Below are positions 5,574 to 27,137 of a stretch of DNA of 64,000 nt, piece after piece. Every line of letters starts with the position of its first letter. The stretch's first letter is position 1. Under the pieces are notes generated by a model. That model was not told the origin of the DNA and did not search any database. It worked only from the letters and a program-made list of their open reading frames with translations. The translations under genes and the position numbers were made by a program. Origin of the DNA: Escherichia coli (GTDB lineage Bacteria > Pseudomonadota > Gammaproteobacteria > Enterobacterales > Enterobacteriaceae); NCBI RefSeq assembly GCF_044647545.1, contig NZ_CP172818.1, one strand, 5' to 3'.

Positions 5574-6020
5574 CTTGTCCTCATTGAATAAGCGGGGCTG
5601 ACAACTTTTCCATGGCGAAATTATCACCACGAAACCCAGCATCGGAGCCACTCCCGGTCCCCAACGCAATCGTTCTCTTTTGCCTGAACTTACCACCGAA
5701 ACAGACTGTTAACCATAAGGTAAAATTGATCATCACATTAGCTTATGGTTAAAAAATGCAAAAATCGCAACAGAATAAAAAACCAAAAAATGAACAAATC
5801 TCTATATAAAGATAAACAGATGAGAAAGTTAATTTGATTAATGCAATATTAAGAACTAAAAAAATGTCAAAAAACACTAAATCAAAAAATCATGACATTA
5901 GAAAATATAATGCGAAAACGGAGGTGAAATTAGTTTATTTCAAATGAGGAAAATCTCCCGGCGAAAAAACCGGGAGATGAAAGTGTGATGGGTATCAAAT
6001 AAACAACAGAGGAGAAATTT
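5574..6020 (-). promoter_or_regulatory. gcvTHP promoter/upstream regulatory region (AT-rich, ~450 bp)
   Basis: Long AT-rich non-coding interval upstream of gcvT; in E. coli this region carries GcvA/Lrp/CRP/PurR sites (not individually mapped here). Confidence 0.5.
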
Positions 6021-7223: not shown

Positions 7224-7245
7224 TGTTTATTCCTTAAAACCGCCT

Positions 7246-8424: not shown

Positions 8425-9746
8425 TGCTTTCTCGCAGCAGCCATCAACGCTTCGATTTCTTCCGGCTTTTTCACCACGCTGGCGGTGAGGTTTTCGTTGC
8501 CGGTTTCGGTAATCACAATGTCGTCTTCAATACGAATGCCGATACCGCGATATTGTTCTGGCACTTCTGCATCCGGCGCAATATACAGACCAGGCTCTAC
8601 GGTCAGTACCATCCCCGGTTCCAGAATACGCGAGCGATCCTGACCATAAACACCAACGTCATGAACATCCAGTCCTAACCAGTGGCTAAGGCCATGCATA
8701 AAGAAAGGACGATGGGCGTTCTGAGCGATCAGTTCATCAACATCACCTTTCAGGATGCCGAGTTTTACCAGGCCGCTAACCATGATGCGCACCACTTCAC
8801 CAGTGACTTCCTGCATGGAAGTTCCCGGACGATACAGCCGCAGGCTGGTTTCAAGAGACTCCAGCACAATGTCGTAGATTTCACGCTGGGCCAGGGTGAA
8901 TTTGCCGTTGACCGGGAAGGTGCGGGTAATATCGCCCGCGTAACCTTTGTATTCACAACCCGCGTCAATCAACACCAGGTCACCGTCGCGCAGTTCACTC
9001 TCGTTTTCGGTGTAGTGCAGAATGCAGCCATTTTCACCGCTGCCGACAATGGTGTTATAGGAAGGATAGCGCGCACCGTGGCGGTTAAATTCGTGGTGAA
9101 TTTCGCCTTCCAGGTGGTACTCGAACATTCCCGGACGGCATTTTTCCATCGCCCGGGTATGCGCCAGGGCGGTGATTTCCCCCGCGCGGCGAAGTACGGC
9201 AATCTCTTCTGGTGATTTGAACAGGCGCATTTCATGAACAATGGGACGCCAGTCGATCATCGTTGCCGGGGCAGTGAGATTCTGTCGCGAGCCTTTACGC
9301 AGCTTTTCCAGCGCGCTGTTCACGATTTCATCAGCATAGGTATATTCGCCCTGAGCGTGATAAACCACATCCAGACCATTAAGCAGTTGATAAAGTTGCT
9401 GATTGATTTCGCTGAATGCCAGTGCGCGGTCAACGCCCAGTTTCTCTGGCGCGGCATCCTGGCCTAAGCGACGACCAAACCAGATCTCTGCCGTCAGGTC
9501 GCGAACGCGGTTAAACAAAACGCTGTGGTTATGAGTGTCGTCGCTTTTAATCAGCACCAGCACCGCTTCCGGTTCGTTAAAGCCGGTGAAGTACCAGAAG
9601 TCACTGTTCTGACGATAGGGGTATTCGCTGTCGGCGCTACGTGTTACTTCTGGTGCAGCAAAAATCAGCGCGGCGCTGCCGGGTTGCATTTGCTCCACCA
9701 GGGCCTGACGGCGACGCTGAAACTCTTGCCGGGATATCTCACTCAT
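8421..9746 (-). CDS. pepP: Xaa-Pro aminopeptidase (aminopeptidase P)
   Basis: 441-aa product from MSEISRQEFQRRRQAL; M24 family; 4-bp overlap with ubiH. Confidence 0.95.
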   Translation of the reverse strand: MSEISRQEFQRRRQALVEQMQPGSAALIFAAPEVTRSADSEYPYRQNSDFWYFTGFNEPEAVLVLIKSDDTHNHSVLFNRVRDLTAEIWFGRRLGQDAAPEKLGVDRALAFSEINQQLYQLLNGLDVVYHAQGEYTYADEIVNSALEKLRKGSRQNLTAPATMIDWRPIVHEMRLFKSPEEIAVLRRAGEITALAHTRAMEKCRPGMFEYHLEGEIHHEFNRHGARYPSYNTIVGSGENGCILHYTENESELRDGDLVLIDAGCEYKGYAGDITRTFPVNGKFTLAQREIYDIVLESLETSLRLYRPGTSMQEVTGEVVRIMVSGLVKLGILKGDVDELIAQNAHRPFFMHGLSHWLGLDVHDVGVYGQDRSRILEPGMVLTVEPGLYIAPDAEVPEQYRGIGIRIEDDIVITETGNENLTASVVKKPEEIEALMAAARKQ

Positions 9747-9771
9747 AACACTCTCCTTACGTTTTTTGTTT

Positions 9772-10350
9772 TTAGTGTAGAGTCGGTTTTTGTACTTCTG
9801 GCGCGGTCGGTTGCGGATGAGTAAAGGTGTCGTGGCATAACAGCGCGGCAACACGAACGTATTCGATGATCTCTTCAAGCGACATTTCAAGCTCTTCCTG
9901 ATCTTCGTCTTCGTCGTAGCCCAGCTGCGCGATGTTACGCAGATCGTCGATGGCTTCACCGGTTTCTCCGGTCACTTTGTCCAGCTTCGGTTGCGTAACG
10001 CCAAGACCAAGCAGGAAGTGATTGACCCAACCTGCCAGCGCATCAGCCCGATCGAAAACGCTGACATCATCGCCATCAGGCAGATAAAGCTGAAAAAGGA
10101 AGCCGTCATCCTGCAGGGCATCGCTGGTGGCAGAGTGCATTTTACGCAGTGCCTGTGCCAGCTCATGACCGAAAGCCATGCCTTCGTTCGTCAGGTCGTG
10201 AAGTAGCGGCAGCCATGAGCTGTCATCGTTACCGCCACATATCATCCCACTGATTAAACCATGCATCTCAGCAGGGGTCAGACCCGTCCCTTGTTGGTTC
10301 AGATACTGGTTCATTTCGTTGTAACCAGGCATTTCGTTCTGTATAGACAT
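9772..10350 (-). CDS. ygfB: UPF0149 family protein YgfB
   Basis: 192-aa product [15 protein letters not shown]... Confidence 0.85.
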
Positions 10351-10451
10351 AAGCATTCGTCGTCAAAGGGAGGAATATTCATGATATGCTACCACTTTGG
10401 GCCCTGGTGGACCAGAAAAGGGCTTGTCTCTTCTCATCAGGGTAGCTATAG

Positions 10452-10847
<396 letters not shown>

Positions 10848-10888
10848 CACTTTTCGGTTTACTGTGGTAGAGTAACCGTGAAGACAAA

Positions 10889-11072
10889 ATTTCTCTGAGA
10901 TGTTCGCAAGCGGGCCAGTCCCCTGAGCCGATATTTCATACCACAAGAATGTGGCGCTCCGCGGTTGGTGAGCATGCTCGGTCCGTCCGAGAAGCCTTAA
11001 AACTGCGACGACACATTCACCTTGAACCAAGGGTTCAAGGGTTACAGCCTGCGGCGGCATCTCGGAGATTCC
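10889..11072 (+). ncRNA. ssrS: 6S RNA (RNA polymerase sigma70-holoenzyme regulator)
   Basis: Sequence atttctctgagatgttcgcaagcgggccagtcccctgagccgatatttcatacc...ggagattccc recognised as E. coli 6S RNA; -10-like tagagtaacc just upstream. Confidence 0.9.
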
Positions 11073-11146
11073 CTTCTTATCTGGCACCAGCCATGACGCA
11101 ACTACCCGAACTCCCACTGACATTATCCCGACAAGAAATCCGCAAA

Positions 11147-11695
11147 ATGATTCGGCAACGTCGTCGTACGTTAACGCCGGAACAACAGCAGGAAATGGGT
11201 CAACAAGCCGCTACCCGGATGATGACTTATCCCCCGGTGGTGATGGCACATACGGTCGCTGTATTCCTCTCTTTTGATGGCGAACTCGACACCCAGCCAC
11301 TCATAGAACAACTCTGGCGCGCCGGTAAGCGCGTATATCTTCCAGTTTTGCATCCCTTTAGTGCCGGTAATTTGCTGTTCCTGAATTACCATCCGCAAAG
11401 CGAACTGGTGATGAACAGGTTGAAGATCCATGAGCCAAAACTGGATGTGCGTGACGTGCTACCCCTTTCCCGATTAGACGTGTTGATCACACCGCTGGTC
11501 GCCTTTGATGAGTACGGTCAGCGCCTGGGAATGGGCGGTGGTTTTTATGATCGGACCTTACAAAACTGGCAGCACTATAAAATGCAACCGGTGGGTTATG
11601 CGCATGATTGTCAGTTGGTGGAAAAACTCCCCGTTGAAGAGTGGGATATCCCTCTTCCTGCGGTGGTTACACCGTCGAAAGTCTGGGAGTGGTAA
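11147..11695 (+). CDS. ygfA: 5-formyltetrahydrofolate cyclo-ligase
   Basis: 182-aa product MIRQRRRTLTPEQQQEMGQQAA...; lies immediately downstream of ssrS (ORF track shows a longer in-frame ORF overlapping 6S RNA). Confidence 0.85.
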   Translation: MIRQRRRTLTPEQQQEMGQQAATRMMTYPPVVMAHTVAVFLSFDGELDTQPLIEQLWRAGKRVYLPVLHPFSAGNLLFLNYHPQSELVMNRLKIHEPKLDVRDVLPLSRLDVLITPLVAFDEYGQRLGMGGGFYDRTLQNWQHYKMQPVGYAHDCQLVEKLPVEEWDIPLPAVVTPSKVWEW

Positions 11696-11754
11696 GGGCG
11701 ACACACCTGCATCGCCCTGATTGACATCGTTGATTCTTTAACCTAATTTAGTGA

Positions 11755-11897
11755 GTAAGGGTAAGGGAGGATGACTCCTCCCCTGAGACTGACTGTTAAT
11801 AAGCTGGGAAACTTATGAGTAACAGTACAATCAGTATGATGACAAGTCGCATCATAACCCTTCTCCTTCAAGCCCTCGCTTCGGTGAGGGCTTTACC
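11755..11897 (+). ncRNA. sibC: SibC antitoxin sRNA antisense to ibsC (boundaries approximate)
   Basis: Antisense to ibsC; ends at intrinsic terminator hairpin gccctcgc-ttcg-gtgagggc followed by ttt (11872-11894). Confidence 0.55.
11796..11855 (-). CDS. ibsC: Type I toxin IbsC (19-aa hydrophobic peptide)
   Basis: Minus-strand translation gives MMRLVIILIVLLLISFPAY*; too short for the ORF track. Confidence 0.8.
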   Translation of the reverse strand: MMRLVIILIVLLLISFPAY

Positions 11898-12030
11898 GTT
11901 ACAGCCCCATGCTGCCCTGCCATCGTAAATCCCCATTAAATAAACACAACGCATTGATCTGACTTTGATTTATTTTCTGGAGCAGACTCGCAAAGTAGAA
12001 TGCGCAATGCGGCAACGGTGTGGAGAAGGG

Positions 12031-12063
12031 ATAAAAAAATCGGGCAAGTCAGTGACCTGCCCG
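12031..12063 (-). terminator. Rho-independent terminator downstream of serA
   Basis: Hairpin cgggcaagtcagtgacctgcccg; on the minus strand it is followed by a T-run (plus-strand ataaaaaaat). Confidence 0.65.
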
Positions 12064-12084
12064 TTAATTTTCAGAGAAGGGGAA

Positions 12085-13317
12085 TTAGTACAGCAGACGG
12101 GCGCGAATGGTACCCGGAATAGCTTTCATTGCCTGCAGCGCTTTTTCGGCAACGTCTTCGTCGGCTTCAATATCAATAACTACATAACCCATCTGGGCGG
12201 AAGTTTGTAGATATTGCGCGGCGATGTTGACGCCCTGCTCGGCAAAAATTTTGTTGAGCGCAGTTAGCACGCCCGGACGGTTTTCGTGGATGTGCATCAG
12301 ACGACGCCCACCGTGCAGTGGCAGCGAGACTTCCGGGAAGTTCACCGCAGAGAGCGTTGAGCCATTGTCAGAATACTTGATCAATTTACCCGCAACTTCC
12401 AGGCCGATATTCTCCTGCGCTTCCTGAGTCGAACCGCCAATGTGTGGCGTCAGAAGGACGTTGTCGAATTCACACAGCGGAGAGGTAAATGGATCGCTAT
12501 TGGTTGCCGGTTCCGTCGGGAATACGTCGATTGCCGCCCCCGCCAGATGTTTGCTCGCCAGCGCGTCACACAGCGCCGGAATATCCACCACAGTACCGCG
12601 CGAAGCATTAATCAGCAGCGAGCCGGGCTTCATTAGTGAAATCTCTTTCGCACTCATCATATTTTTGGTGGACGGATTCTCTGGTACATGCAGACTCACC
12701 ACATCGCTCATATTCAGCAGGTCAGAAAGATGCTGTACCTGAGTGGCGTTGCCCAGCGGCAGTTTGTTTTCAATATCATAAAAGTAAACATACATTCCCA
12801 GCGATTCAGCCAGAATGCCCAATTGAGTACCAATATGACCATAGCCGATGATACCCAGCTTTTTGCCGCGCGCTTCAAAAGAACCCGCCGCCAGTTTGTT
12901 CCACACGCCACGGTGCGCTTTAGCATTGGCTTCCGGCACGCCGCGCAATAGCAGCAGCAGTTCGCCAATCACCAGCTCCGCAACAGAGCGCGTATTTGAG
13001 AACGGTGCGTTAAATACCGGGATACCGCGTTTTGCCGCCGCATCCAGATCAACCTGGTTTGTTCCGATACAGAAACAGCCAATAGCGACCAGTTTTTCTG
13101 CGGCGTTGATCACGTCTTCAGTCAGATGGGTACGGGATCGCAGGCCGATGAAGTGGGCATCGCGGATGGATTCTTTTAATTGTTCATCATCCAGCGCGCC
13201 TTTGTGAAATTCGATGTTGGTGTAACCCGCTGCACGAAGGCTTTCAAGCGCCTTTTGGTGCACGCCTTCTACCAGCAGAAACTTAATCTTGTCTTTCTCC
13301 AGCGATACCTTTGCCAT
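12085..13317 (-). CDS. serA: D-3-phosphoglycerate dehydrogenase
   Basis: 410-aa product MAKVSLEKDKIKFLLVEGVHQ... with C-terminal ACT domain. Confidence 0.95.
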   Translation of the reverse strand: MAKVSLEKDKIKFLLVEGVHQKALESLRAAGYTNIEFHKGALDDEQLKESIRDAHFIGLRSRTHLTEDVINAAEKLVAIGCFCIGTNQVDLDAAAKRGIPVFNAPFSNTRSVAELVIGELLLLLRGVPEANAKAHRGVWNKLAAGSFEARGKKLGIIGYGHIGTQLGILAESLGMYVYFYDIENKLPLGNATQVQHLSDLLNMSDVVSLHVPENPSTKNMMSAKEISLMKPGSLLINASRGTVVDIPALCDALASKHLAGAAIDVFPTEPATNSDPFTSPLCEFDNVLLTPHIGGSTQEAQENIGLEVAGKLIKYSDNGSTLSAVNFPEVSLPLHGGRRLMHIHENRPGVLTALNKIFAEQGVNIAAQYLQTSAQMGYVVIDIEADEDVAEKALQAMKAIPGTIRARLLY

Positions 13318-13572
13318 TTACCCAATCCTGTCTTTTGAAATGTTGTGTGCGGATTTGCATCCGCCTTTCAACATATCAAAAAATAATATTGCGGCAATAT
13401 GAACGTTTGCGTCGCGATGTTGAGGAAATATCACGCAAAGGTATTTCTTGGATGAATATGCTGGTTTAGAGGATTTATTTAGAGCAATCGACAATAGCCA
13501 GGTAAAAACGTGACACATGTCACCAAATTTAATGAAGAGAATTTTTTTAACGGGGGAGGTTCCCCCGTCAGA

Positions 13573-14232
13573 TCATTTCACAATGGTTTTGACACCGTCA
13601 GGTGTGCCAATCAGCGCAACGTCCGCGCCACGGTTAGCAAACAAGCCAACAGTCACCACGCCAGGAATCGCATTTATGGCGTTTTCCATCGCTATCGGGT
13701 CAAGGATTTCCATGCCGTGGACGTCGAGGATCACGTTGCCGTTATCGGTCACCACGCCCTGACGGTATTCCGGACGACCGCCCAGTTTCACCAGCTGGCG
13801 CGCCACTGCACTACGTGCCATCGGGATAACTTCTACTGGCAGCGGGAATTTGCCCAGAATATCAACCTGCTTGGAGGCGTCGGCAATACAGATAAATTTT
13901 TCCGCAACCGAAGCAATGATTTTTTCACGGGTCAGCGCCGCGCCGCCGCCTTTGATCATTTGCATGTGGCCGTTGATTTCATCTGCGCCATCAACGTAGA
14001 TGCCAAGGCTGTCGACTTCGTTGAGATCAAAAACGTGAATGCCGAGGCTTTTCAGTTTTTCAGTGGAAGCATCTGAACTGGAAACGGCCCCTTCAATCTG
14101 GCCTTTCATTGTACCGAGCGCGTCAATAAAGTGTGCGGCGGTGGAACCTGTACCTACACCAACAATGGTGCCGGGCTGAACATACTGAAGTGCCGCCCAT
14201 CCTACTGCTTTTTTCAATTCATCCTGGGTCAT
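13573..14232 (-). CDS. rpiA: Ribose-5-phosphate isomerase A
   Basis: 219-aa product [32 protein letters not shown]... Confidence 0.95.
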
Positions 14233-14287
14233 GATCGTTTCGCCTGTGGTATGAAATTTCACACGCATTATATACAAAAAAAGCGAT

Positions 14288-14518
14288 TCAGACCCCGTTG
14301 GCAAGCCGCGTGGTTAACTCATCCATAAAATATCGCGCAATGGCGGGCATCCCCTTTCGCCCGGCAAATAAAGCATACAACGGTCTGGGTATGCCGCTCC
14401 ACGGTGCAAACAGGCGCACCAGTTCACCGTTCGCAAGCCCCTGTTTACAGGCAAATTGAGGCAATAACGCCACGCCATTCAACCCAACCGGGACGCGAAC
14501 TCGCCGAGCAAAATGCAT
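14288..14518 (-). pseudogene. yqfE: C-terminal fragment of a LysR-family regulator
   Basis: 76-aa ORF resembling only the C-terminal tail of a LysR-type effector domain; no N-terminal HTH portion upstream. Confidence 0.6.
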
Positions 14519-14584
14519 TAGCGCAAATCCCTGATCTTATTACACAAGTATTTAATCATTATCTTTAATATAAAAGGAGTTATT

Positions 14585-14845
14585 ATGTCTATTAAGCAAA
14601 ATTTATTTGCCGCATTATTTCTTTGCACTCTCACAGGACACGCATTTGCCGCAACCGAGATACACAAACCGGACAATAATCTTGAACAGTTATCAAAAGT
14701 GAGCATGTCCACACACAATAGCAATCCAGCGGGCGTTGAAAGCCAAATCAAAAGAGAAAGCGGAAGAGTTACAAGCCAGCAATTACTACATCAGTTCTTT
14801 CTCCGTAAAAATTATATCCACGCCACTGTAATTTTCTATAAATAG
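14585..14845 (+). CDS. Hypothetical small exported protein (86 aa)
   Basis: Strong SD (aaggag) 7 nt upstream of ATG; N-terminal signal-peptide-like segment MSIKQNLFAALFLCTLTGHAFAA. Confidence 0.45.
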   Translation: MSIKQNLFAALFLCTLTGHAFAATEIHKPDNNLEQLSKVSMSTHNSNPAGVESQIKRESGRVTSQQLLHQFFLRKNYIHATVIFYK

Positions 14846-15528
14846 CCCCTCTGTTTAACGGAAGCATGGAATTATTCCATGCTCCTCTGCCAAAATGAAA
14901 TAAAAAATGAAAAAAGCTAATCTTACAGGTACGTTGGTTTGCTTTGTCGCATGCCTTATTTTTTTGTCGTCCGGTGATATTTTTCGTGAAAAGCCAATCG
15001 CTCTAATATGGTTCCTTCGACAAAACATACTCTTTTTTACGGGAACTCTTGCGTGGTGTCTGATGACGCTGACGATGTGTTTATCGTTGCGTTCATCATG
15101 GCTTAACAAAGTGCTGGGCGGTCTGGATAAAGTATGGCGAATCACATAAGTGGGCAGGAATATGCGCCATAGCGTTTGCTTTCGCCCACTGGCTGGATGA
15201 AAAATTACCCCAGTTATTCGTCGCCTTTGGCTGGCTTACTCACCCTGGTAAAATCGTTGATATTAACCTGACGCCAGTACAAGAAAATTGGCTTCATGCG
15301 GGACTGTTAGCGGGTGAATGCGCAATGTTTATTATTATAGCGATGGTTTGCGTATCTCTTAGCAAAAGAGTTCCCTATCATTTATTTCATCTTGTTCACC
15401 GTTTGTTCCCCGTCTTTTATCTGGCAATTGCCTTTCATGTGTTTACTGCTTTGTTTAAATCATACTGGTGGAACTCCTGCTGCGTATTTATTAATTTTAA
15501 TTACTATTCCGGGCGTCTTTGCGGCTTT

Positions 15529-15537
15529 CATTTCGCT
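15529..15537. repeat. Left copy of 9-bp target-site duplication (catttcgct) flanking IS1
   Basis: Identical 9-mer directly abuts both IS1 ends. Confidence 0.85.
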
Positions 15538-16307
15538 GGTAATGACTCCAACTTACTGATAGTGTTTTATGTTCAGATAATGCCCGATGACTTTGTCATG
15601 CAGCTCCACCGATTTTGAGAACGACAGTGACTTCCGTCCCAGCCTTGCCAGATGTTGTCTCAGATTCAGGTTATGTCGCTCAATGCGCTGAGTGTAACGC
15701 TTGCTGATTACGTGCAGCTTTCCCTTCAGGCGGGATTCATACAGCGGCCAGCCATCCGTCATCCATACCACGACCTCAAAGGCCGACAGCAGGCTCAGAA
15801 GACGCTCCAGTGTGGCCAGAGTGCGTTCACCGAAGACGTGCCACAACCGTCCTCCGTATCCTGTCATACGCGTAAAACAGCCAGCGCTGACGTGATTTAG
15901 CACCGACGTAGCCCCACTGTTCGTCCATTTCAGCGCAGACAATCACATCACTGCCCGGCTGTATGCGCGAGGTTACCGACTGCGGCCTGAGTTTTTTAAT
16001 AAAGTGACGTAAAATCGTGTTGAGGCCAACGCCCATAATGCGGGCGGTCGCCCGGCATCCAACACCATTCATGGCCATATCAATGATTTTCTGGTGTGTA
16101 CCGGGTTGAGAAGCGGTGTAAGTGAACTGCAGTTGCCATGTTTTACGGCAGTGAGAGCAGAGATAGCGCTGATGTCCGGCAGTACTTTTACCGTTACGCA
16201 CCACGCCTTCAGTAGCTGAGCAGGAGGGACAACTGATGGAGATGGAAGCCACGGGAGCACCTCAAAAACACCATCATACACTAAATCAGTAAGTTGGCAC
16301 CATTACC
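15538..16307 (-). mobile_element. IS1-family insertion sequence (770 bp), divergent isoform
   Basis: Terminal inverted repeats ggtaatgactccaacttactgat / atcagtaagttggcaccattacc; InsA and InsB homologous ORFs on minus strand; flanked by 9-bp direct repeat. Confidence 0.92.
15553..16252 (-). pseudogene. insAB: IS1 insA-insB region; insA fused in-frame to insB' but insB then frameshifted (defective transposase)
   Basis: ORF 15827-16252 = [13 protein letters not shown]...[16 protein letters not shown]...[13 protein letters not shown]; 4-nt insertion at the A6C slippery site (cgtcactttattaaaaaactc) puts insA in the insB frame; a further indel (~2 nt) shifts frame so the rest of InsB is ORF 15553-15942. 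Confidence 0.8.
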
Positions 16308-16316
16308 CATTTCGCT
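16308..16316. repeat. Right copy of 9-bp target-site duplication (catttcgct) flanking IS1
   Basis: Identical to 15529-15537. Confidence 0.85.
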
Positions 16317-17082
16317 GCTGAAATTCAAACGGTAGTAAAAACAAGCATCAGGCTACCATTAAAAACATTGTTAACCATCCAGGACAAATTACCGAAGTCA
16401 CCCTGGAACTGGAACATGCCATCGACTATTCTCCGGGGCAGTTTGCATTCTTAACGTTCGCACACAGTAAAGAATCTCACCCTTTTACTATCGCTTCATA
16501 CACCAAAGAGAAGAACACGTTGCGCTTTGCCATCAAAAATTTAGGGGATTATACCTCTACCCTTGCATCCTCGATAAAAATCGGCCAGTCCGCCTTCGTT
16601 GAAGGGCCATGGGGAAAGTTTGATTTAGACTCTCCCTTGCTCCCACCAGGTCTGGATAGCAGGAGGCATCGGCATTACCCCCTTTATCGCCCAGCTTGAG
16701 TATCGTAAACATCATGGCGCGTCCTCTGTTCCTGTGGATCTCTGGTATTACGTCAGCCGAAGCGAGGATGCCTGGTATGTTGATAAACTGACCTCACTTT
16801 GTGCCCAGGCCAGGGTCACACTGCATCTGCTTGATGCGCATAAAGGTGAGCGCCTACAGGCGCACTATCTTACTGATAAAATAGCAAATAAAGGTGACAC
16901 CCATTTCTGGTTTTGCGGCCCACAGAGTTTTGCCAAAGCGCTCAGCAAAGGGTTATATGAAAATGGGATTGCCAGCCAAAACTTCCATTACGACCGTTTT
17001 TGTATGCGTTAAATGCTCTGTACCCAACGCAAAATTGTGTCATAGTGCAGGAAAAAGCATTTACCAGGAGCAGACAACAGCA

Positions 17083-17976
17083 ATGAAACGCCCGGACTAC
17101 AGAACATTACAGGCACTGGATGCGGTGATACGTGAACGAGGATTTGAACGCGCGGCACAAAAGCTGTGCATTACACAATCAGCCGTCTCACAGCGCATTA
17201 AGCAACTGGAAAATATGTTCGGGCAGCCGCTGTTGGTGCGTACCGTACCGCCGCGCCCGACAGAACAAGGGCAAAAACTGCTGGCACTGCTACGCCAGGT
17301 GGAGTTGCTGGAAGAAGAGTGGCTGGGCGATGAACAAACCGGTTCGACTCCGCTGCTGCTTTCACTGGCGGTCAACGCCGACAGTCTGGCGACGTGGTTG
17401 CTTCCGGCGCTGGCTCCTGTGTTGGCTGATTCGCCTATCCGCCTCAACTTGCAGGTAGAAGATGAAACCCGCACTCAGGAACGTCTGCGCCGCGGCGAAG
17501 TGGTCGGCGCGGTGAGTATTCAACATCAGGCGCTGCCGAGTTGCCTTGTCGATAAGCTCGGTGCGCTTGACTATCTGTTCGTCAGCTCAAAACCGTTTGC
17601 CGAAAAATATTTCCCTAACGGCGTAACGCGTTCGGCATTATTGAAAGCACCTGTGGTCGCCTTTGACCATCTTGACGATATGCACCAGGCCTTTTTGCAG
17701 CAAAACTTCGATCTGCCCCCAGGCAGCGTACCGTGCCATATCGTTAATTCTTCAGAAGCGTTCGTACAACTTGCTCGCCAGGGCACCACCTGCTGTATGA
17801 TCCCGCACCTGCAAATCGAGAAAGAACTGGCCAGCGGCGAACTGATTGACTTAACGCCGGGGCTATTTCAACGCCGGATGCTCTACTGGCACCGCTTTGC
17901 TCCTGAAAGCCGCATGATGCGTAAAGTCACTGATGCGTTGCTCGATTATGGTCACAAAGTCCTTCGTCAGGATTAA
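17083..17976 (+). CDS. argP: LysR-family regulator ArgP/IciA
   Basis: 297-aa product [43 protein letters not shown]... (HTH at N-terminus); ORF track has an in-frame upstream extension. Confidence 0.95.
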
Positions 17977-18179
17977 TCCATCAAATAATGCCTGATAGCA
18001 CATATCAGGCGTTATCCTCACTTCTTTTTGTATTCCTTGAATCACATCACAAAATAGACAAATCTCAGGCGGCAAAAAACGACGTCTGAATGCATTTTTT
18101 TTGCTGGCGACAAACCCACGTAAAAAGCTCACCGTAAGCGCAAATACCCTCATTTTGATTGCGTTTTACGGAGCAAATA

Positions 18180-20323
18180 ATGTCTAACGTGCAGGAGTGG
18201 CAACAGCTTGCCAACAAGGAATTGAGCCGTCGGGAGAAAACTGTCGACTCGCTGGTTCAGCAAACCGCGGAAGGGATCGCCATCAAGCCGCTGTATACCG
18301 AAGCCGATCTCGATAATCTGGAGGTGACAGGTACCCTTCCTGGTTTGCCCCCTACGTTCGTGGCCCGCGTGCCACTATGTATACCGCCCAACCGTGGACC
18401 ATCCGTCAGTATGCTGGTTTTTCAACAGCAAAAGAGTCCAACGCTTTTTATCGCCGTAACCTGGCCGCCGGGCAAAAAGGTCTTTCCGTTGCGTTTGACC
18501 TTGCCACCCACCGAGGCTACGACTCCGATAACCCGCGCGTGGCGGGCGACGTCGGCAAAGCGGGCGTTGCTATCGACACCGTGGAAGATATGAAAGTCCT
18601 GTTCGACCAGATCCCGCTGGATAAAATGTCGGTTTCGATGACCATGAATGGCGCAGTACTACCAGTACTGGCGTTTTATATTGTCGCCGCAGAAGAGCAA
18701 GGTGTTACACCCGATAAACTGACCGGCACCATTCAAAACGATATCCTCAAAGAGTATCTTTGCCGCAACACCTATATTTACCCGCCAAAACCGTCAATGC
18801 GTATTATCGCAGACATCATCGCCTGGTGTTCCGGCAACATGCCGCGATTTAATACCATCAGTATCAGCGGTTACCATATGGGTGAAGCGGGTGCCAACTG
18901 CGTGCAGCAGGTAGCATTTACGCTCGCTGATGGGATTGAGTACATCAAAGCAGCAATCTCCGCCGGGCTGAAAATTGATGACTTCGCTCCTCGCCTGTCG
19001 TTCTTCTTCGGCATTGGCATGGATCTGTTTATGAACGTCGCCATGTTGCGTGCGGCACGTTATTTATGGAGCGAAGCGGTCAGTGGATTTGGCGCACAGG
19101 ATCCGAAATCACTGGCGCTGCGTACCCACTGCCAGACCTCAGGCTGGAGCCTGACTGAACAGGATCCGTATAACAACGTTATACGCACCACCATTGAAGC
19201 ACTGGCTGCAACGCTGGGCGGTACTCAGTCACTGCATACCAACGCCTTTGATGAAGCGCTTGGTTTGCCTACCGATTTCTCAGCACGCATTGCCCGCAAT
19301 ACCCAGATCATCATTCAGGAAGAATCAGAACTCTGCCGCACCGTCGATCCACTGGCCGGATCCTATTACGTTGAATCGCTGACCGATCAAATCGTCAAAC
19401 AAGCCAGAGCCATTATCCAACAGATCGACGAAGCCGGTGGCATGGCGAAAGCGATCGAAGCAGGTCTGCCAAAACGAATGATCGAAGAGGCCTCAGCGCG
19501 CGAACAGTCGTTGATCGACCAGGGCAAGCGTGTCATCGTTGGTGTCAACAAGTACAAACTGGATCACGAAGACGAAACCGATGTACTTGAGATCGACAAC
19601 GTGATGGTGCGTAACGAGCAAATTGCTTCGCTGGAACGCATTCGCGCCACCCGTGATGATGCCGCCGTAACCGCCGCGTTGAACGCCCTGACTCACGCCG
19701 CACAGCATAACGAAAACCTGCTGGCTGCCGCTGTTAATGCCGCTCGCGTTCGCGCAACGCTTGGTGAAATTTCCGATGCACTGGAAGCGGCATTTGACCG
19801 TTATCTGGTGCCAAGCCAGTGTGTTACCGGCGTGATTGCGCAAAGCTATCATCAGTCTGAGAAATCGGCCACCGAGTTCGATGCCATTGTTGCGCAAACG
19901 GAGCAGTTCCTTGCCGACAATGGTCGTCGCCCGCGCATTCTGATCGCCAAAATGGGCCAGGATGGGCACGATCGCGGCGCGAAAGTGATCGCCAGCGCCT
20001 ATTCCGATCTCGGTTTCGACGTAGATTTAAGCCCGATGTTCTCTACACCTGAAGAGATCGCCCGCCTGGCAGTAGAAAACGACGTTCACGTAGTGGGCGC
20101 ATCTTCACTGGCTGCCGGTCATAAAACGCTGATCCCGGAACTGGTCGAAGCGCTGAAAAAATGGGGACGCGAAGATATCTGCGTGGTCGCGGGTGGCGTC
20201 ATTCCGCCGCAGGATTACGCCTTCCTGCAGGAGCGCGGCGTGGCGGCGATTTATGGTCCAGGTACGCCTATGCTCGACAGCGTGCGCGACGTACTGAATC
20301 TGATAAGCCAGCATCATGATTAA
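18180..20323 (+). pseudogene. scpA: Methylmalonyl-CoA mutase (sleeping beauty mutase) with a -1 frameshift after codon ~57
   Basis: N-terminus MSNVQEWQQLANKELSRREK...TGTLPGLPP in frame 0 (ORF 18159-18593), then conserved [30 protein letters not shown]... continues in frame 2 (ORF to 20323); shift occurs in the C5 run at 18348-18352. Confidence 0.8.
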
Positions 20324-21311
20324 TGAAGCCACGCTGGCAGAAAGTATTCGCCGCTTACGTCAGGGTGAGCGTGCCACGCTCGCCCAGGCCATGACGCTGG
20401 TGGAAAGCCGTCACCCGCGTCATCAGGCGCTAAGTACGCAACTGCTTGATGCCATTATGCCGTTCTGTGGTAACGCCCTGCGACTGGGTGTTACCGGCAC
20501 ACCCGGCGCGGGGAAAAGTACCTTTCTTGAAGCCTTTGGCATGTTGTTGATTCGTGAGGGACTAAAGGTTGCGGTTATTGCGGTCGATCCCAGCAGCCCG
20601 GTCACTGGCGGTAGCATTCTCGGAGATAAAACCCGCATGAATGATCTGGCGCGTGCCGAGGCGGCGTTTATTCGCCCGGTACCCTCCTCCGGTCATCTGG
20701 GCGGTGCCAGTCAGCGAGCGCGGGAATTAATGCTGTTATGCGAAGCGGCGGGTTATGACGTAGTGATTGTCGAAACGGTTGGCGTCGGACAGTCGGAAAC
20801 GGAAGTCGCCCGCATGGTGGACTGTTTTATCTCGTTGCAAATTGCCGGTGGCGGCGATGATCTGCAGGGCATTAAAAAGGGGCTGATGGAAGTGGCAGAT
20901 CTGATCGTTATCAACAAAGACGATGGCGATAACCATACCAATGTCGCCATTGCCCAGCATATGTACGAGAGTGCCCTGCATATTCTGCGACACAAATACG
21001 ACGAATGGCAGCCACGGGTTCTGACTTGTAGCGCACTGGAAAAACGTGGAATCAATGAGATCTGGCACGCCATCATCGACTTCAAAACCGCGCTAACTGC
21101 CAGTGGTCGTTTGCAACAAGTACGGCAACAACAATCAGTGGAATGGCTGCGTAAACAAACCGAAGAAGAAGTACTGAATCACCTGTTCGCGAATGAAGAT
21201 TTCGATCGCTATTACCGCCAGACGCTTTTAGCGGTCAAAAACAATACGCTCTCACCGCGCACCGGCCTGCGACAGCTCAGTGAATTTATCCAGACGCAAT
21301 ATTTTGATTAA
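20316..21311 (+). CDS. argK: Mutase-associated GTPase (MeaB/ArgK family)
   Basis: 331-aa product with P-loop GTPGAGKST; overlaps scpA stop. Confidence 0.9.
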
Positions 21312-21321
21312 AGGAATTTTT

Positions 21322-22107
21322 ATGTCTTATCAGTATGTGAACGTTGTCACTATCAACAAAGTGGCGGTCATTGAGTTTAACTATGGCCGAAAACTTAATG
21401 CCTTAAGTAAAGTCTTTATTGATGATCTTATGCAGGCATTAAGCGATCTCAACCGGCCGGAAATTCGCTGTATCATTTTGCGCGCGCCGAGTGGATCCAA
21501 AGTCTTCTCCGCAGGTCACGATATTCACGAACTGCCGTCTGGCGGTCGCGATCCGCTCTCCTATGATGATCCGTTGCGTCAAATCACCCGCATGATCCAA
21601 AAATTCCCGAAACCGATCATTTCGATGGTGGAAGGTAGTGTTTGGGGTGGCGCATTTGAAATGATCATGAGTTCCGATCTGATTATCGCCGCCAGTACCT
21701 CAACCTTCTCAATGACACCTGTAAACCTCGGTGTCCCGTATAACCTGGTCGGCATTCACAATCTGACCCGCGACGCGGGCTTCCACATTGTCAAAGAGCT
21801 GATTTTTACCGCTTCGCCAATCACCGCCCAGCGCGCGCTGGCTGTCGGCATCCTCAACCATGTTGTGGAAGTGGAAGAACTGGAAGATTTCACCTTACAA
21901 ATGGCGCACCACATCTCTGAGAAAGCGCCGTTAGCCATTGCCGTTATCAAAGAAGAGCTGCGTGTACTGGGCGAAGCGCACACCATGAACTCCGATGAAT
22001 TTGAACGTATTCAGGGGATGCGCCGCGCGGTTTATGACAGCGAAGACTACCAGGAAGGGATGAACGCTTTCCTCGAAAAACGTAAACCTAATTTCGTTGG
22101 TCATTAA
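21322..22107 (+). CDS. scpB: Methylmalonyl-CoA decarboxylase (crotonase fold)
   Basis: 261-aa product MSYQYVNVVTINKVAVIEFNYGRKLNAL... Confidence 0.9.
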   Translation: MSYQYVNVVTINKVAVIEFNYGRKLNALSKVFIDDLMQALSDLNRPEIRCIILRAPSGSKVFSAGHDIHELPSGGRDPLSYDDPLRQITRMIQKFPKPIISMVEGSVWGGAFEMIMSSDLIIAASTSTFSMTPVNLGVPYNLVGIHNLTRDAGFHIVKELIFTASPITAQRALAVGILNHVVEVEELEDFTLQMAHHISEKAPLAIAVIKEELRVLGEAHTMNSDEFERIQGMRRAVYDSEDYQEGMNAFLEKRKPNFVGH

Positions 22108-22130
22108 TCCCTGCGAACGAAGGAGTTAAA

Positions 22131-23609
22131 ATGGAAACTCAGTGGACAAGGATGACCGCCGATGAAGCGGCAGAAATTATCCAGCATAACGACATGGTGG
22201 CATTTAGCGGCTTTACCCCAGCGGGTTCGCCGAAAGCCTTACCCACCGCGATTGCCCGCAGAGCTAACGAACAGCATGAGGCCAAAAAGCCGTATCAAAT
22301 TCGCCTGCTGACGGGGGCGTCAATCAGCGCCACCGCTGACGATGTACTTTCTGACGCCGATGCTGTTTCCTGGCGTGCGCCATATCAAACATCGTCCGGT
22401 TTACGTAAAAAGATCAATCAGGGCGCGGTGAGTTTCGTTGACCTGCATTTGAGCGAAGTGGCGCAAATGGTCAATTACGGTTTCTTCGGCGACATTGATG
22501 TTGCCGTCATCGAAGCATCGGCACTGGCACCGGATGGTCGAGTCTGGTTAACCAGCGGGATCGGTAATGCGCCGACCTGGCTGCTGCGAGCGAAGAAAGT
22601 GATCATTGAACTTAATCACTATCACGATCCGCGCGTTGCAGAACTGGCAGATATTGTGATTCCTGGCGCGCCACCGCGGCGCAATAGCGTGTCGATCTTC
22701 CATGCAATGGATCGCGTCGGTACCCGCTATGTGCAAATCGATCCGAAAAAGATTGTCGCCGTCGTGGAAACCAACTTGCCTGACGCCGGTAATATGCTGG
22801 ATAAGCAAAATCCCATGTGCCAGCAGATTGCCGATAACGTGGTCACGTTCTTGTTGCAGGAAATGGCGCATGGGCGTATTCCGCCGGAATTTCTGCCGCT
22901 GCAAAGTGGCGTGGGCAATATCAATAATGCGGTAATGGCGCGTCTGGGGGAAAACCCGGAAATTCCTCCGTTTATGATGTATTCGGAAGTGCTACAGGAA
23001 TCGGTGGTGCATTTACTGGAAACCGGCAAAATCAGCGGGGCCAGCGCCTCCAGCCTGACAATCTCGGCCGATTCCCTGCGCAAGATTTACGACAATATGG
23101 ATTACTTTGCCAGCCGCATTGTGTTGCGTCCGCAGGAGATTTCCAATAACCCGGAAATCATCCGTCGTCTGGGCGTCATCGCTCTGAACGTCGGCCTGGA
23201 GTTTGATATTTACGGGCATGCCAACTCAACGCACGTAGCCGGGGTCGATCTGATGAACGGCATCGGCGGCAGCGGTGATTTTGAACGCAACGCGTATCTG
23301 TCGATCTTTATGGCTCCGTCGATTGCTAAAGAAGGCAAGATCTCAACCGTCGTGCCAATGTGCAGCCATGTTGATCACAGCGAACACAGCGTCAAAGTGA
23401 TCATCACCGAACAAGGGATCGCCGATCTGCGCGGTCTTTCCCCGCTTCAACGCGCCCGCACTATCATTGATAATTGTGCACATCCTATGTATCGGGATTA
23501 TCTGCATCGTTATCTGGAAAATGCGCCCGGCGGACATATTCACCACGATCTTAGCCACGTCTTCGACTTACACCGTAATTTAATTGCAACCGGCTCGATG
23601 CTGGGTTAA
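22131..23609 (+). CDS. scpC: Propionyl-CoA:succinate CoA-transferase
   Basis: 492-aa product, acetyl-CoA hydrolase/transferase family. Confidence 0.9.
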   Translation: METQWTRMTADEAAEIIQHNDMVAFSGFTPAGSPKALPTAIARRANEQHEAKKPYQIRLLTGASISATADDVLSDADAVSWRAPYQTSSGLRKKINQGAVSFVDLHLSEVAQMVNYGFFGDIDVAVIEASALAPDGRVWLTSGIGNAPTWLLRAKKVIIELNHYHDPRVAELADIVIPGAPPRRNSVSIFHAMDRVGTRYVQIDPKKIVAVVETNLPDAGNMLDKQNPMCQQIADNVVTFLLQEMAHGRIPPEFLPLQSGVGNINNAVMARLGENPEIPPFMMYSEVLQESVVHLLETGKISGASASSLTISADSLRKIYDNMDYFASRIVLRPQEISNNPEIIRRLGVIALNVGLEFDIYGHANSTHVAGVDLMNGIGGSGDFERNAYLSIFMAPSIAKEGKISTVVPMCSHVDHSEHSVKVIITEQGIADLRGLSPLQRARTIIDNCAHPMYRDYLHRYLENAPGGHIHHDLSHVFDLHRNLIATGSMLG

Positions 23610-24502
23610 TGGTTTGTCCCGTCACGATCTTCAGCAATATGCTGAAGCATCGTGGCGGTATAACGATGATTTCTGATTGAATAAAGATATTCCTGCATAT
23701 ACATCGGCCTGTGCGGCGCATCAAAATATTTCAGCGTTGCCGGATTCACCAGTCGCCAGGCAAAATGCGGGATCACCGTCAGAAAATGTCCGCGCTCCAC
23801 GGCGCTGATTTTGGCCATAAAACTGTAGGGACGATAAATAATGGTGGGATTGATCCCACAAGGTCGCATATTCGCATCAATCATTGCTTCGAAGTTAGCC
23901 CGGTTCTGAAAGCGCATTTGCAGCCAGGGTAGCTCCTGAAGCAGCTCTTGCTCTTGTCGCTCTTCATAACGGCGAGAAACGAGAAAGCCCAATCGCAGCG
24001 GTGGTAGTTCACTGATAGTCAGGTTTTCCAGTTCCTGAACTCGTGCAGATACATGCTGTGGGGAGATAATAAAATCTAACTGACGGTCAAAAAGATTATC
24101 GATAACGCCGTTTTCGCTGAACTCAACTGGCTGGGCGGTCACGCCTTCATACTTATCTCCGAGACTAATCAACTGATCGAAAATAATTGTCGGATAAGTA
24201 TTATCTATGCCAATCACAATTTCTCGTGAACGACGCCCTGAGTTATGGATTTCATTATCAATCGCAGAAAGTCGTTGATAAACCGGGAACAGTTTTTGAT
24301 ACAGTTCCTGTCCGGCTTTATTGAGGCTGATATTATTATCTTTGCGGGTAAATAGCGTATAGCCAATTTGTTCTTCCAGCGCGGCAATGCTTTTACCAAA
24401 TGGCGAAGCCGTCATATGGATTTTTTCTGCCGCCCGGGCAATATTATTGGTTTGCGCTAATAAAATGAAATTGCGCATCTTTTTCGAAATAAAAATGTCC
24501 AT
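23606..24502 (-). CDS. ygfI: LysR-family transcriptional regulator
   Basis: 298-aa product with N-terminal HTH (QTNNIARAAEKIHMTASPFGKSIAALEEQIG). Confidence 0.85.
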   Translation of the reverse strand: MDIFISKKMRNFILLAQTNNIARAAEKIHMTASPFGKSIAALEEQIGYTLFTRKDNNISLNKAGQELYQKLFPVYQRLSAIDNEIHNSGRRSREIVIGIDNTYPTIIFDQLISLGDKYEGVTAQPVEFSENGVIDNLFDRQLDFIISPQHVSARVQELENLTISELPPLRLGFLVSRRYEERQEQELLQELPWLQMRFQNRANFEAMIDANMRPCGINPTIIYRPYSFMAKISAVERGHFLTVIPHFAWRLVNPATLKYFDAPHRPMYMQEYLYSIRNHRYTATMLQHIAEDRDGTNH

Positions 24503-24669
24503 ACCCCCTCCCCCGCATCCTTGTCCGCTTAACCGTTTCAGTCAGCCTATCCTTGATGAAACCGCGAGCAAAGATAGGTGATTACGTCATGGTTTTACAG
24601 AAAATTACAGAAAAAGGAGGCAATATCGGGTAAAGGCATTAGCCCGACGAATACGTCGGGCTACAAATA

Positions 24670-25410
24670 TTATTGTGCTGCAGGTGTTTTAGCGGGTTGT
24701 TGATCCACAGGTTCTAACTGGAAGACCACATCGACCTGATCATCAAACTGAATAGCGGCCTGCTCGTAAGTTTCCTGGGCGGACACCGGCGCGGCATCGG
24801 CTTTCATCATCCGCACCATTGGGCTGGGCTGATAGTTGGAAACATGGTAGCGCACGCTATATACCGGCCCCAGTTTACGATGAAAGCCGTTCGCCAGTTC
24901 CTGCGCCTGATGAATCGCGTTATCAATCGCTGCCTTACGCGCTTTGTCTTTATAGGCATCCGGCTGCGCCACGCCCAGCGACACAGAACGAATTTCGTTA
25001 AGACCCGCCTTCAGCGCGCCATCCAGCAAGGAATTCAGTTTGTCTAACTGACGGAGCGTGACTTCCACCGTTCTCACAGCACGGTAGCCTTTCAGGATAC
25101 TTTTACCATCCTGATAATCATAATCTGGCTGGGTGCGTAAGTTCGCTGAGCTGATATCTTTTTTCGCGATCTGATTGAGTTCAAGGAAGGAAATGTATTG
25201 TGCGACGCGCTCATCCGCCTGTTTCTTGGCAGTAGCGGCATCCTTCGCGGCCACGTTGACTTCAATCGCAAGAGTGGCAATGTCTGGCACCGCATCCACG
25301 CTTGCCGTACCGGAGGTGACAATATGCGGTCCATCCGGCAATTCGTTAGCCTGCGCTGCCATCCCGCTAATACCCATTAATGCCGCCAGGGCGATAACTT
25401 TGAACTTCAC
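24670..25410 (-). CDS. yggE: Periplasmic SIMPL/DUF541 protein
   Basis: 246-aa product with signal peptide MKFKVIALAALMGISGMAAQA. Confidence 0.85.
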   Translation of the reverse strand: MKFKVIALAALMGISGMAAQANELPDGPHIVTSGTASVDAVPDIATLAIEVNVAAKDAATAKKQADERVAQYISFLELNQIAKKDISSANLRTQPDYDYQDGKSILKGYRAVRTVEVTLRQLDKLNSLLDGALKAGLNEIRSVSLGVAQPDAYKDKARKAAIDNAIHQAQELANGFHRKLGPVYSVRYHVSNYQPSPMVRMMKADAAPVSAQETYEQAAIQFDDQVDVVFQLEPVDQQPAKTPAAQ

Positions 25411-25502
25411 GTTAGTCTCTCCGTGTTAATTGACTTGCCCAAAATTCAGGACCTCTGGAGGCAAGCTTAGCGCCTCTGTTTTATTTTTCCATCAGATAGC
25501 GC

Positions 25503-26138
25503 CTAACTGAACAAGGCTTGTGCATGAGCAATACCGTCTCTCGCCAGCTGCAAGGCAATAAACCACATAACACATCCCACTACCAGATTGATAATGCGTT
25601 GTGATTTTGCCGTGCGCAGGCGCGGTGCCAGCCAGGCTGCGAGAATAGCCAGACCAAAGAACCACAGGAAAGAGGCGCTAATTGTCCCGAGCGCAAACCA
25701 ACGTTTTGGTTCGACGTCAAGCTGCCCACCAAGGCTGCCCAGTACAACAAAAGTATCCAGGTAAACATGCGGATTCAGCCAGGTCACTGCCAACATGGTG
25801 GCGATAATTTTCCATCTGCCTTGCTTCAGGACTTCGGCACTGGCTAACTCAATATTACTGCTCATTGCTGTTTTAAAAGCGCCAAAACCATACCACAGCA
25901 AGAAGGCTACGCCGCCCCAGGTGACCAGCGCCAGCAACCACGGCGACTGCATCAATAACGCACTGCCACCAAAAATCCCGGCGCAAATCAGGACCAAATC
26001 GCTGATAGCGCAAAGTAAGGCAATCATAATGTGGTACTGACGACGAATGCCCTGATTCATCACAAAAGCATTTTGTGGACCGAGCGGTAGGATCATAGCC
26101 GCCCCAAGCGCAAGACCTTGAAAGTAATAAGAAAACAC
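25503..26138 (-). CDS. argO: Arginine exporter (LysE family)
   Basis: 211-aa multi-TM product [34 protein letters not shown]. Confidence 0.9.
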
Positions 26139-26276
26139 GTTGGATATTCCGAATTAAGTATCTGATGCAGAGACTATATCGCGGGATTGTTATTAGCGGA
26201 AATTGATAATATTAATTGGCAATCAGAAAAACTAATAAGAGAGAGGCCAGAGAGTATTATCTGGCCTCAGCGTTGA

Positions 26277-27137
<861 letters not shown>

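What the first reader, a model, noticed from the sequence alone, without database searches (positions are those of the whole stretch)
18340..18380. Frameshift (1-nt deletion in a C-run) splits the sbm/scpA methylmalonyl-CoA mutase gene
The N-terminal 57 codons read in frame 0 to ...TGTLPGLPP, but the conserved mutase sequence [23 protein letters not shown]... continues in frame 2. The switch is in ttgccccctac (C5 at 18348-18352), where a C6 would restore the frame. The upstream ORF then terminates at 18593 and the next in-frame ATG (18377) would give an N-terminally truncated protein. sbm heads the cryptic sbm-argK-scpB-scpC propionate operon, so inactivation is plausible biologically, but a homopolymer miscount is equally plausible technically.
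Basis: seen in the sequence. Interest (0 to 1): 0.45.

Follow-up and report, generated by a model that had tools for sequence, protein, structure and literature searches.

The report
One-base frameshift in scpA, probably artefact
A single missing C in a run of six splits the E. coli methylmalonyl-CoA mutase gene (scpA/sbm); the break is in the sequence as described, but it is most likely a base-counting or sequence-quality error, and if real it is an ordinary strain-specific pseudogene.

Summary
scpA starts at 18180, and the frame changes at a C5 run (18348-18352). The first ORF stops at 18593; the rest of the mutase reads in another frame to 20323. Adding one C gives a 714-aa protein identical to ScpA of ST648 strain MS6198.

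The window belongs to an ST648 subclade. All its close relatives have C6 and an intact scpA. Across 59 kb of clean sequence, the window differs from MS14385 only by this deletion and three ansB SNPs.

C5 is rare: 3 of 5,421 complete E. coli genomes. It follows sequencing batches, not phylogeny:
- Two unrelated strains from one Bangkok submission carry it.
- Three haplotypes from neighbouring SRA runs carry it.
- Near-identical clones carry C4, C5 or C7.

A Dcm site (CCTGG) lies 4 nt upstream of the run, and Dcm sites are a published nanopore error context. The window also contains clearly non-biological patches: a poly-A(37), A-rich filler replacing accessory genes, and small indels breaking every gene of one island.

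One result points the other way. Two control G/C6 runs, in gshB and trmB, show no -1 variants in about 5,400 genomes, so some scpA variants may be real and simply tolerated.

Verdict: artefact about 0.75, real recent pseudogene about 0.22, recoding or phase variation about 0.03. Interest is low.

The parts
18180..20323 (+). scpA (sbm) methylmalonyl-CoA mutase gene, interrupted by a 1-nt deletion; 2,144 bp here against 2,145 bp in relatives
   Evidence: PGAP annotation of the same stretch in relatives. The repaired translation is identical to WP_000073261.1. Pfam PF01642 E 3.6e-235 and PF02310 E 3.1e-20. Human MUT 2xij E 2.4e-278.
18348..18352 (+). C5 homopolymer; C6 (Pro57-Pro58, CCC CCC) in 5,418 of 5,421 complete E. 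coli genomes; the site of the frame change
18339..18343 (+). Dcm methylation motif CCTGG, 4 nt upstream of the C run; a possible context for a nanopore base-calling error (inference)
   Evidence: Motif found. Dcm-site and modification-induced nanopore errors are reported in PMC6703438 and PMC11610603.
18180..18593 (+). Frameshifted N-terminal ORF, 137 aa: 58 native residues (through Pro58), then 79 out-of-frame residues and a stop
   Evidence: No Pfam hit. The exact product is on record in only one public contig, DRR571130.
18377..20323 (+). 648-aa ORF from the next in-frame ATG (Met67). It lacks the first 40 positions of the MM_CoA_mutase profile and has no Shine-Dalgarno sequence upstream (gcgtgccactATG)
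   Evidence: The same truncated product is called in about 50 blocks of public assemblies.
20316..21311 (+). meaB (argK/ygfD), the GTPase chaperone of the mutase. It is intact and its start overlaps the scpA stop by 8 nt, so it would be affected by polarity if the frameshift were real
21322..22107 (+). scpB (ygfG) methylmalonyl-CoA decarboxylase, intact
   Evidence: no differences from MS6198.
22131..23609 (+). scpC (ygfH) propionyl-CoA:succinate CoA transferase, intact

Best explanation
The missing C is most likely not a property of the organism. It is probably a miscount of a C6 homopolymer, introduced during base-calling, assembly, polishing or later handling of this sequence. The underlying gene would then be the normal, intact scpA of an ST648 E. 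coli, at the head of the silent, B12-dependent scpA-meaB-scpB-scpC succinate-to-propionate operon.

Shown: the lesion; its absence from all close relatives; its recurrence in unrelated genomes grouped by submission; and other corruption in the same window. Inferred: that the cause is technical, and that the adjacent Dcm site CCTGG makes this run an error hot spot for nanopore-type data.
For: 1. The closest relatives all have C6 and an intact scpA. These are the ST648 subclade that shares the yggP W43* mutation: MS14385, 4973, EC11 and WP4-S18-ESBL-09. Across 59.3 kb of clean sequence, the window differs from MS14385 only by this deletion and three ansB SNPs.
2. C5 tracks sequencing batch, not phylogeny.
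   - Two of the three RefSeq C5 genomes are unrelated strains (49 SNPs in 2.9 kb) from one Bangkok submission, CM142671 and CM142673.
   - Lineage mates of one of them have C6.
   - Three different haplotypes from neighbouring runs SRR30896162, SRR30896197 and SRR30896431 all have C5.
3. Near-identical clones carry different run lengths. One clone shows C5 (L001, L007, L011), C7 (L012) and C4 (L014). The ST648 haplotype shows C5 (window, L008), C7 (L013), C8 (L009) and C6.
4. L008, L009, L014 and L015 show other homopolymer indels or fragmented genes, which marks them as noisy assemblies.
5. In complete genomes only under-counts are seen: C5 in 3, C7 in 0. Nanopore reads are reported to under-report homopolymer length (PMC10039527).
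6. A Dcm site lies 4 nt upstream of the run. Dcm-site and modification-induced nanopore errors are documented (PMC6703438; PMC11610603).
7. The window itself is demonstrably unfaithful in places: a poly-A(37) and A-rich filler replace accessory genes, one gene is homopolymer-smeared, and 8 small indels break every gene of one island. The flanks of these patches are 100% identical to relatives.
Against: 1. The other 227 homopolymer runs of 5 or more bases in the clean 59 kb, including A8, T8, a G6 and a C6, all agree with relatives. There is no general homopolymer problem.
2. The two control G/C6 runs in the window, in gshB and trmB, show no -1 variant in about 5,400 complete genomes, against 3 for scpA. 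This is what selection would produce if scpA frameshifts were real and tolerated. It requires the technical explanation to be specific to this sequence context.
3. scpA is dispensable under most conditions, because the operon is silent and needs exogenous B12 (PMC3850637, PMC5512728).
4. In one other C5 genome, scpA is the only pseudogene in 50 kb, so that assembly is not globally poor.
5. The sequencing platform and reads behind the window are unknown, and its source record could not be found.
Confidence: 0.75

Rival explanations
1. A real, recent, strain-specific pseudogene. Replication slippage on the C6 run deleted one C in this ST648 isolate. Translation ends after 137 aa, the 648-aa remainder has no ribosome-binding site, and the overlapping meaB start loses translational coupling, so the already silent Sbm pathway is inactivated.
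For: - The lesion sits at one of only three G/C runs of 6 in 59 kb, which is the likeliest place for slippage.
- The rest of the clean sequence is accurate at 227 other runs.
- Control runs in gshB and trmB never show the -1 state in about 5,400 genomes, while scpA does in 3. That fits tolerated loss of a dispensable gene.
- The same lineage already carries a real inherited pseudogene nearby, yggP W43*, shared by 4 genomes.
- The operon is described as silent (PMC3850637, PMC5512728).
Against: - No relative shares the lesion by descent. The four subclade genomes and MS6198 have C6.
- C5 elsewhere clusters by submission batch across unrelated strains, and run length varies from C4 to C8 within clones.
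- The window contains other changes that cannot be biological.
Confidence: 0.22
2. The C run is a functional switch. Either it is a phase-variable (contingency) tract that turns the sbm operon on and off, or the C5 allele is decoded by programmed -1 ribosomal frameshifting or transcriptional slippage to give full-length mutase.
For: Public assemblies show run lengths C4, C5, C6, C7 and C8 at this one site. Pro-Pro codons on a C run are intrinsically slippery (my own knowledge).
Against: - 5,418 of 5,421 complete genomes have the in-frame C6, and none has C7.
- A 6-nt tract is shorter than known contingency tracts.
- G CCC CCU is not an X XXY YYZ heptamer.
- The 88 nt downstream fold no better than shuffles (z = -0.56; 58 of 200 shuffles fold as well).
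- Variant lengths co-occur with noisy assemblies and with batches.
Confidence: 0.03

Closest known systems
E. coli Sbm/ScpA (sleeping beauty mutase), adenosylcobalamin-dependent methylmalonyl-CoA mutase heading the scpA-meaB(argK/ygfD)-scpB(ygfG)-scpC(ygfH) operon
   Same: Same locus, between argP and srsR. After adding one C, the protein is 714/714 identical to WP_000073261.1 of ST648 strains. It has the PF01642 and PF02310 domains and the DGHDRG (DxHxxG) cobalamin-binding motif. The downstream genes are intact.
   Different: The reading frame is broken after codon 58 by a C6-to-C5 change, so no full-length product is encoded as written.
scpA entries flagged 'frameshifted' by PGAP in RefSeq genomes NZ_CP146571 (B1.H1.1), NZ_CM142671 and NZ_CM142673
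   Same: Identical lesion, with C5 at the same run and 601/601 bp identity around it.
   Different: They sit on different chromosomal backgrounds, 40-117 SNPs apart in 7.7 kb, so they are independent occurrences and not the source of this window.
Residual homopolymer and methylation-motif errors in long-read (nanopore) bacterial assemblies
   Same: A single-base under-count in a G/C homopolymer next to a Dcm site. It recurs across unrelated genomes of one batch, in assemblies that are otherwise clean (PMC6703438, PMC10039527, PMC11610603).
   Different: The platform of the window is unknown. Its other defects (poly-A filler, collapsed accessory genes, non-homopolymer indels) are not typical nanopore errors.

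Membership tests
Methylmalonyl-CoA mutase (ScpA/Sbm) | MM_CoA_mutase catalytic (TIM-barrel) domain, PF01642 | tested here: met
   Repaired protein: residues 28-539, E 3.6e-235. The 648-aa ORF matches from profile position 41 onward.
Methylmalonyl-CoA mutase (ScpA/Sbm) | C-terminal B12-binding domain (PF02310) with the DxHxxG motif | tested here: met
   PF02310 at residues 586-701, E 3.1e-20. The motif [11 protein letters not shown] is visible in the translation.
Methylmalonyl-CoA mutase (ScpA/Sbm) | Close sequence relatives with solved mutase structures | tested here: met
   Human MUT 2xij/8gju E about 2e-278 over residues 6-707; P. shermanii 1req alpha chain E 3e-270.
Methylmalonyl-CoA mutase (ScpA/Sbm) | Operon context scpA-meaB-scpB-scpC between argP and srsR | tested here: met
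   Collinear with the annotated genomes.
Methylmalonyl-CoA mutase (ScpA/Sbm) | One uninterrupted reading frame encoding the full-length enzyme | tested here: not met
   The frame changes at 18348-18352; the ORFs are 18180-18593 and 18377-20323.
Genuine (inherited) pseudogene | Lesion shared by descent with related genomes, or confirmed in reads | tested here: not met
   The four genomes of the yggP W43* subclade and MS6198 have C6. L008 (ST648, C5) is a noisy assembly with 4 other homopolymer indels in 20 kb. Reads are not available.
Sequencing or assembly homopolymer artefact | Single-base length change confined to a homopolymer, with the sequence otherwise identical to relatives | tested here: met
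   It is the only difference from MS6198 in 17000-27000.
Sequencing or assembly homopolymer artefact | The same miscall recurs in unrelated genomes and groups by submission or run batch rather than by phylogeny | tested here: met
   Bangkok pair; SRR30896162/197/431 with three haplotypes; C4, C5 and C7 within one clone. That these runs belong to one batch is inferred from accession proximity.
Sequencing or assembly homopolymer artefact | Comparable homopolymers elsewhere show the same error | tested here: not met
   The -1 variants of the gshB G6 and trmB C6 runs have 0 exact hits in about 5,400 genomes. The other 227 runs in the window are correct.
Sequencing or assembly homopolymer artefact | Read pile-up shows the reference length (C6) | not testable with these tools
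   No reads are available, and the source record was not found.
Programmed -1 frameshift or transcriptional slippage site | Slippery heptamer X XXY YYZ (or a run of 8-9 or more A/T), plus a downstream stimulatory structure | tested here: not met
   The sequence is UUG CCC CCU ACG. The downstream 88 nt fold with z = -0.56.
Programmed -1 frameshift or transcriptional slippage site | The out-of-frame arrangement is conserved among relatives | tested here: not met
   5,418 of 5,421 genomes are in frame.
Phase-variable contingency locus | Long simple-sequence tract with frequent on/off states among close relatives | tested here: not met
   The tract is 6 nt. C5 occurs in 3 and C7 in 0 of 5,421 genomes.

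The most novel reading that the evidence does not exclude
The C run in scpA is a genuinely hypermutable site, possibly made so by the adjacent Dcm-methylated CCTGG. Under this reading, E. coli lineages repeatedly and reversibly switch off the B12-dependent Sbm propionate operon, and the C4-C8 variants in public assemblies are real alleles, not errors.
Probability: 0.04. Interest if true: 0.35.

Novelty: not a real feature. Interest (0 to 1): 0.08.

Why it matters
It matters little for biology. If the deletion is real, this is one more strain-specific loss of a silent, dispensable gene, and the same allele is already flagged 'frameshifted' in three RefSeq genomes.

The practical value is for quality control. 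This C6 run next to a Dcm site appears to be a recurrent miscall site in E. coli assemblies, so scpA 'pseudogenes' called there should not be counted as gene loss without read support. This particular window also contains corrupted stretches, so any small lesion in it needs read-level confirmation.

Tried and rejected
1. The window's source is not one of the three RefSeq C5 genomes. They differ from the window by 40-117 SNPs in 7.7 kb.
2. C5 did not spread by recombination. UID2309220031 has a 780-bp tract identical to the window around the run. However, about 30 lineage mates carry the same haplotype with C6, so its C5 is a singleton.
3. I could not find the source record.
   - The exact 137-aa product matched only one unrelated 2.9-kb Logan contig.
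   - The 565-aa product was not on record.
   - ORFs from the garbled patches were not on record.
   - A 50-mer from the garbled patch was absent from GTDB representatives and JGI metagenomes.
   - No complete E. coli genome holds the patch.
4. Programmed frameshifting is rejected. There is no slippery heptamer, no downstream structure and no conservation of the shifted state.
5. A general homopolymer-error model for the window is rejected. 227 of 228 runs are correct.
6. I first suspected the yggP stop at a Dcm site was a second methylation-linked error. Four genomes from different laboratories share it, so it is a real inherited mutation.
7. A literature search for the platform used for the Olsztyn B1.H1.1 genome found nothing usable.

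Full report
**Observation**

The window reads cttcctggtttgCCCCCtacgttcgtggc, with five C's at 18348-18352. From the ATG at 18180, translation gives [58 protein letters not shown]. It then turns to nonsense and stops at 18593. The next frame carries [23 protein letters not shown]... without interruption to the stop at 20323. The mechanical ORF list shows 18159..18593 and 18377..20323 (648 aa).

**Identity of the gene**

The stretch is scpA (sbm), the methylmalonyl-CoA mutase gene. It lies between argP and the meaB-scpB-scpC genes, as annotated in E. coli genomes.
- Inserting one C gives a 714-aa protein identical to MS6198 ScpA, WP_000073261.1.
- The repaired protein has PF01642 (E 3.6e-235) and PF02310 (E 3.1e-20).
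- It matches human and Propionibacterium mutase structures at E of about 1e-270 or better.
- The 137-aa N-terminal product has no Pfam hit.
- The 648-aa ORF lacks the first 40 profile positions and has no Shine-Dalgarno sequence upstream.
- The meaB start overlaps the scpA stop, so a real frameshift would probably also reduce expression of the downstream genes. This last point is inference.

**How unusual the lesion is**

Of 5,421 complete E. coli genomes that hold the 61-mer, 3 have C5 and the rest align with a one-base gap, meaning C6. None has C7. PGAP annotates the three C5 genomes as 'frameshifted'. They differ from the window by 40-117 SNPs in 7.7 kb, and they differ from each other as well. 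They are therefore independent occurrences and none is the source of the window.

**Lineage of the window**

The window is almost identical to ST648 genomes. It shows no differences from MS6198 over 1011-14480. Within 17000-27000 the C deletion is the only difference.

A C-to-T change at 34484 turns Trp43 of yggP into a stop. Exactly four genomes share it: MS14385, 4973, EC11 and WP4-S18-ESBL-09. MS14385 annotates it as 'internal stop'. This mutation defines the window's subclade.

All four subclade genomes have an intact scpA. Against MS14385, the 59.3 kb of clean sequence differs only by the C deletion and three clustered ansB SNPs, two synonymous and one T274S. The deletion is therefore private to this sequence.

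**Evidence that the site is a technical hot spot**

The exact 648-aa truncated product is called in about 50 blocks of public assemblies. In the retrieved loci the run is C4, C5, C7 or C8.
- Nearly identical clones carry different lengths. L001, L007 and L011 have C5, L012 has C7 and L014 has C4. On the ST648 haplotype, the window and L008 have C5, L013 has C7, L009 has C8 and MS6198 has C6.
- C5 groups by submission. Two unrelated strains from one Bangkok deposit carry it, while lineage mates of one of them have C6.
- Three different haplotypes from SRA runs SRR30896162, SRR30896197 and SRR30896431 also carry C5. That these runs form one project is inferred from their accession numbers.
- Several variant-carrying assemblies show other homopolymer indels or fragmented genes.
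- A Dcm motif, CCTGG, lies 4 nt upstream of the run.
- Published work reports three relevant nanopore behaviours: discrepancies concentrated at CC(A/T)GG sites in E. coli (PMC6703438), errors induced by bacterial DNA modification (PMC11610603), and under-reporting of homopolymer length (PMC10039527).

The link between the Dcm site and this particular miscount is my inference.

**The window is not a faithful sequence everywhere**

Next to flanks that are 100% identical to relatives, the window has the following defects.
- A 1,346-bp loss at 14481. It is followed by eight small, mostly non-homopolymer indels from 14750 to 16627 that break every gene of the rpiA-argP accessory island, including IS1.
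- Losses of 7 nt and 8 nt at 27265 and 36563, both intergenic.
- A homopolymer-smeared version of the prohibitin-family gene at 36840-37315.
- About 900 bp between speB and speA replaced by 90 bp ending in a poly-A(37), at 41476-41565.
- The 3.2-kb TRAP transporter region replaced by 1.16 kb of filler that is 53% A, at 56100-57265. Part of the filler is a gapped subsequence of the true gene.

None of this exists in complete E. coli genomes, GTDB representatives, JGI metagenomes or called ORFs of public assemblies. Natural evolution cannot produce such patches while leaving 14 kb of neighbouring sequence without a single substitution. I cannot say which process made them. It could be an assembly or polishing failure, or later corruption or synthesis of the sequence. 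A process that makes small indels in this window is, in any case, an obvious candidate for the scpA deletion.

**Evidence on the other side**

- In the clean 59 kb, 227 of 228 homopolymer runs of 5 or more bases agree with relatives, including A8, T8, a G6 in gshB and a C6 in trmB.
- The -1 variants of those two control runs have no exact match in about 5,400 complete genomes. If miscounts at G/C6 runs were a uniform technical background at the scpA rate, about three would be expected at each control site.
- Either the error is specific to the scpA context, or some scpA variants are real and persist because the gene is dispensable.
- The operon is described as silent and depends on supplied B12 (PMC3850637, PMC5512728).
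- In UID2309220031, scpA is the only pseudogene in 50 kb.

**Recoding and phase variation**

The sequence UUG CCC CCU is not a canonical slippery heptamer. The 88 nt downstream fold no better than shuffled sequence (z = -0.56). The in-frame C6 is nearly universal. A 6-nt tract with 3 variants in 5,421 genomes does not behave as a contingency locus.

**Verdict**

I weight the explanations as follows:
- a technical or sequence-integrity artefact, about 0.75;
- a real, recent, strain-specific pseudogene made by slippage, about 0.22;
- a functional switch or recoding site, about 0.03.

Under any of these the finding is ordinary. The identical allele is already annotated as 'frameshifted' in RefSeq. 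Read-level data at 18340-18360 would settle the question.

Noticed in passing
window 36840-37315, 41476-41565, 56100-57265: Accessory genes are replaced by shorter, low-complexity, A-rich sequence: a prohibitin-family gene, a hypothetical gene between speB and speA, and a 3.2-kb TRAP transporter. The filler includes a poly-A(37) and a homopolymer-smeared copy of the true gene. The flanks are 100% identical to ST648 genomes. The patches were not found in any public collection searched. They look non-biological and their origin is unknown.
   Followed up: partly
window 14481-16627: The rpiA-argP accessory island (LysR regulator, azoreductase, DUF1471, ferric reductase, IS1, FAD oxidoreductase) has a 1,346-bp deletion. 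It also has eight small, mostly non-homopolymer indels (1-4 nt) and a few substitutions relative to every ST648 relative. Together these break every gene, including the IS1 copy.
   Followed up: partly
window 34484 (yggP, minus strand, gene about 33334-34611): A C-to-T change at the inner, methylated C of a Dcm site (CCAGG to CTAGG) turns Trp43 (TGG) into a TAG stop in yggP. Exactly four complete ST648 genomes share it (MS14385, 4973, EC11, WP4-S18-ESBL-09), and MS14385 annotates it as 'internal stop'. It is a real inherited pseudogene with the signature of 5-methylcytosine deamination, and it marks the window's subclade.
   Followed up: yes
window 58617, 58630, 58888 (ansB, minus strand): Three substitutions within 272 bp, two synonymous and one T274S, are private to the window relative to MS6198 and MS14385. 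They are the only SNPs in 59 kb of clean sequence. They may be a short recombination tract or further noise.
   Followed up: partly
window 1008-1010, 27265, 36563, 40400-40440, 56086-56097: Small window-specific losses or rearrangements in intergenic regions relative to ST648 relatives: about 100 bp between bglA and gcvP, 7 nt, 8 nt, 4+1 nt, and a few bases after hemW. They could be REP-element variation or part of the same corruption.
   Followed up: no
loci L006-L016 (public assemblies), position equivalent to window 18348-18352: The scpA C run appears as C4, C5, C7 or C8 in public assemblies that encode the same 648-aa truncated product. Within-clone differences and clustering by run accession suggest a recurrent miscall site. 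This is worth knowing when counting scpA pseudogenes.
   Followed up: partly
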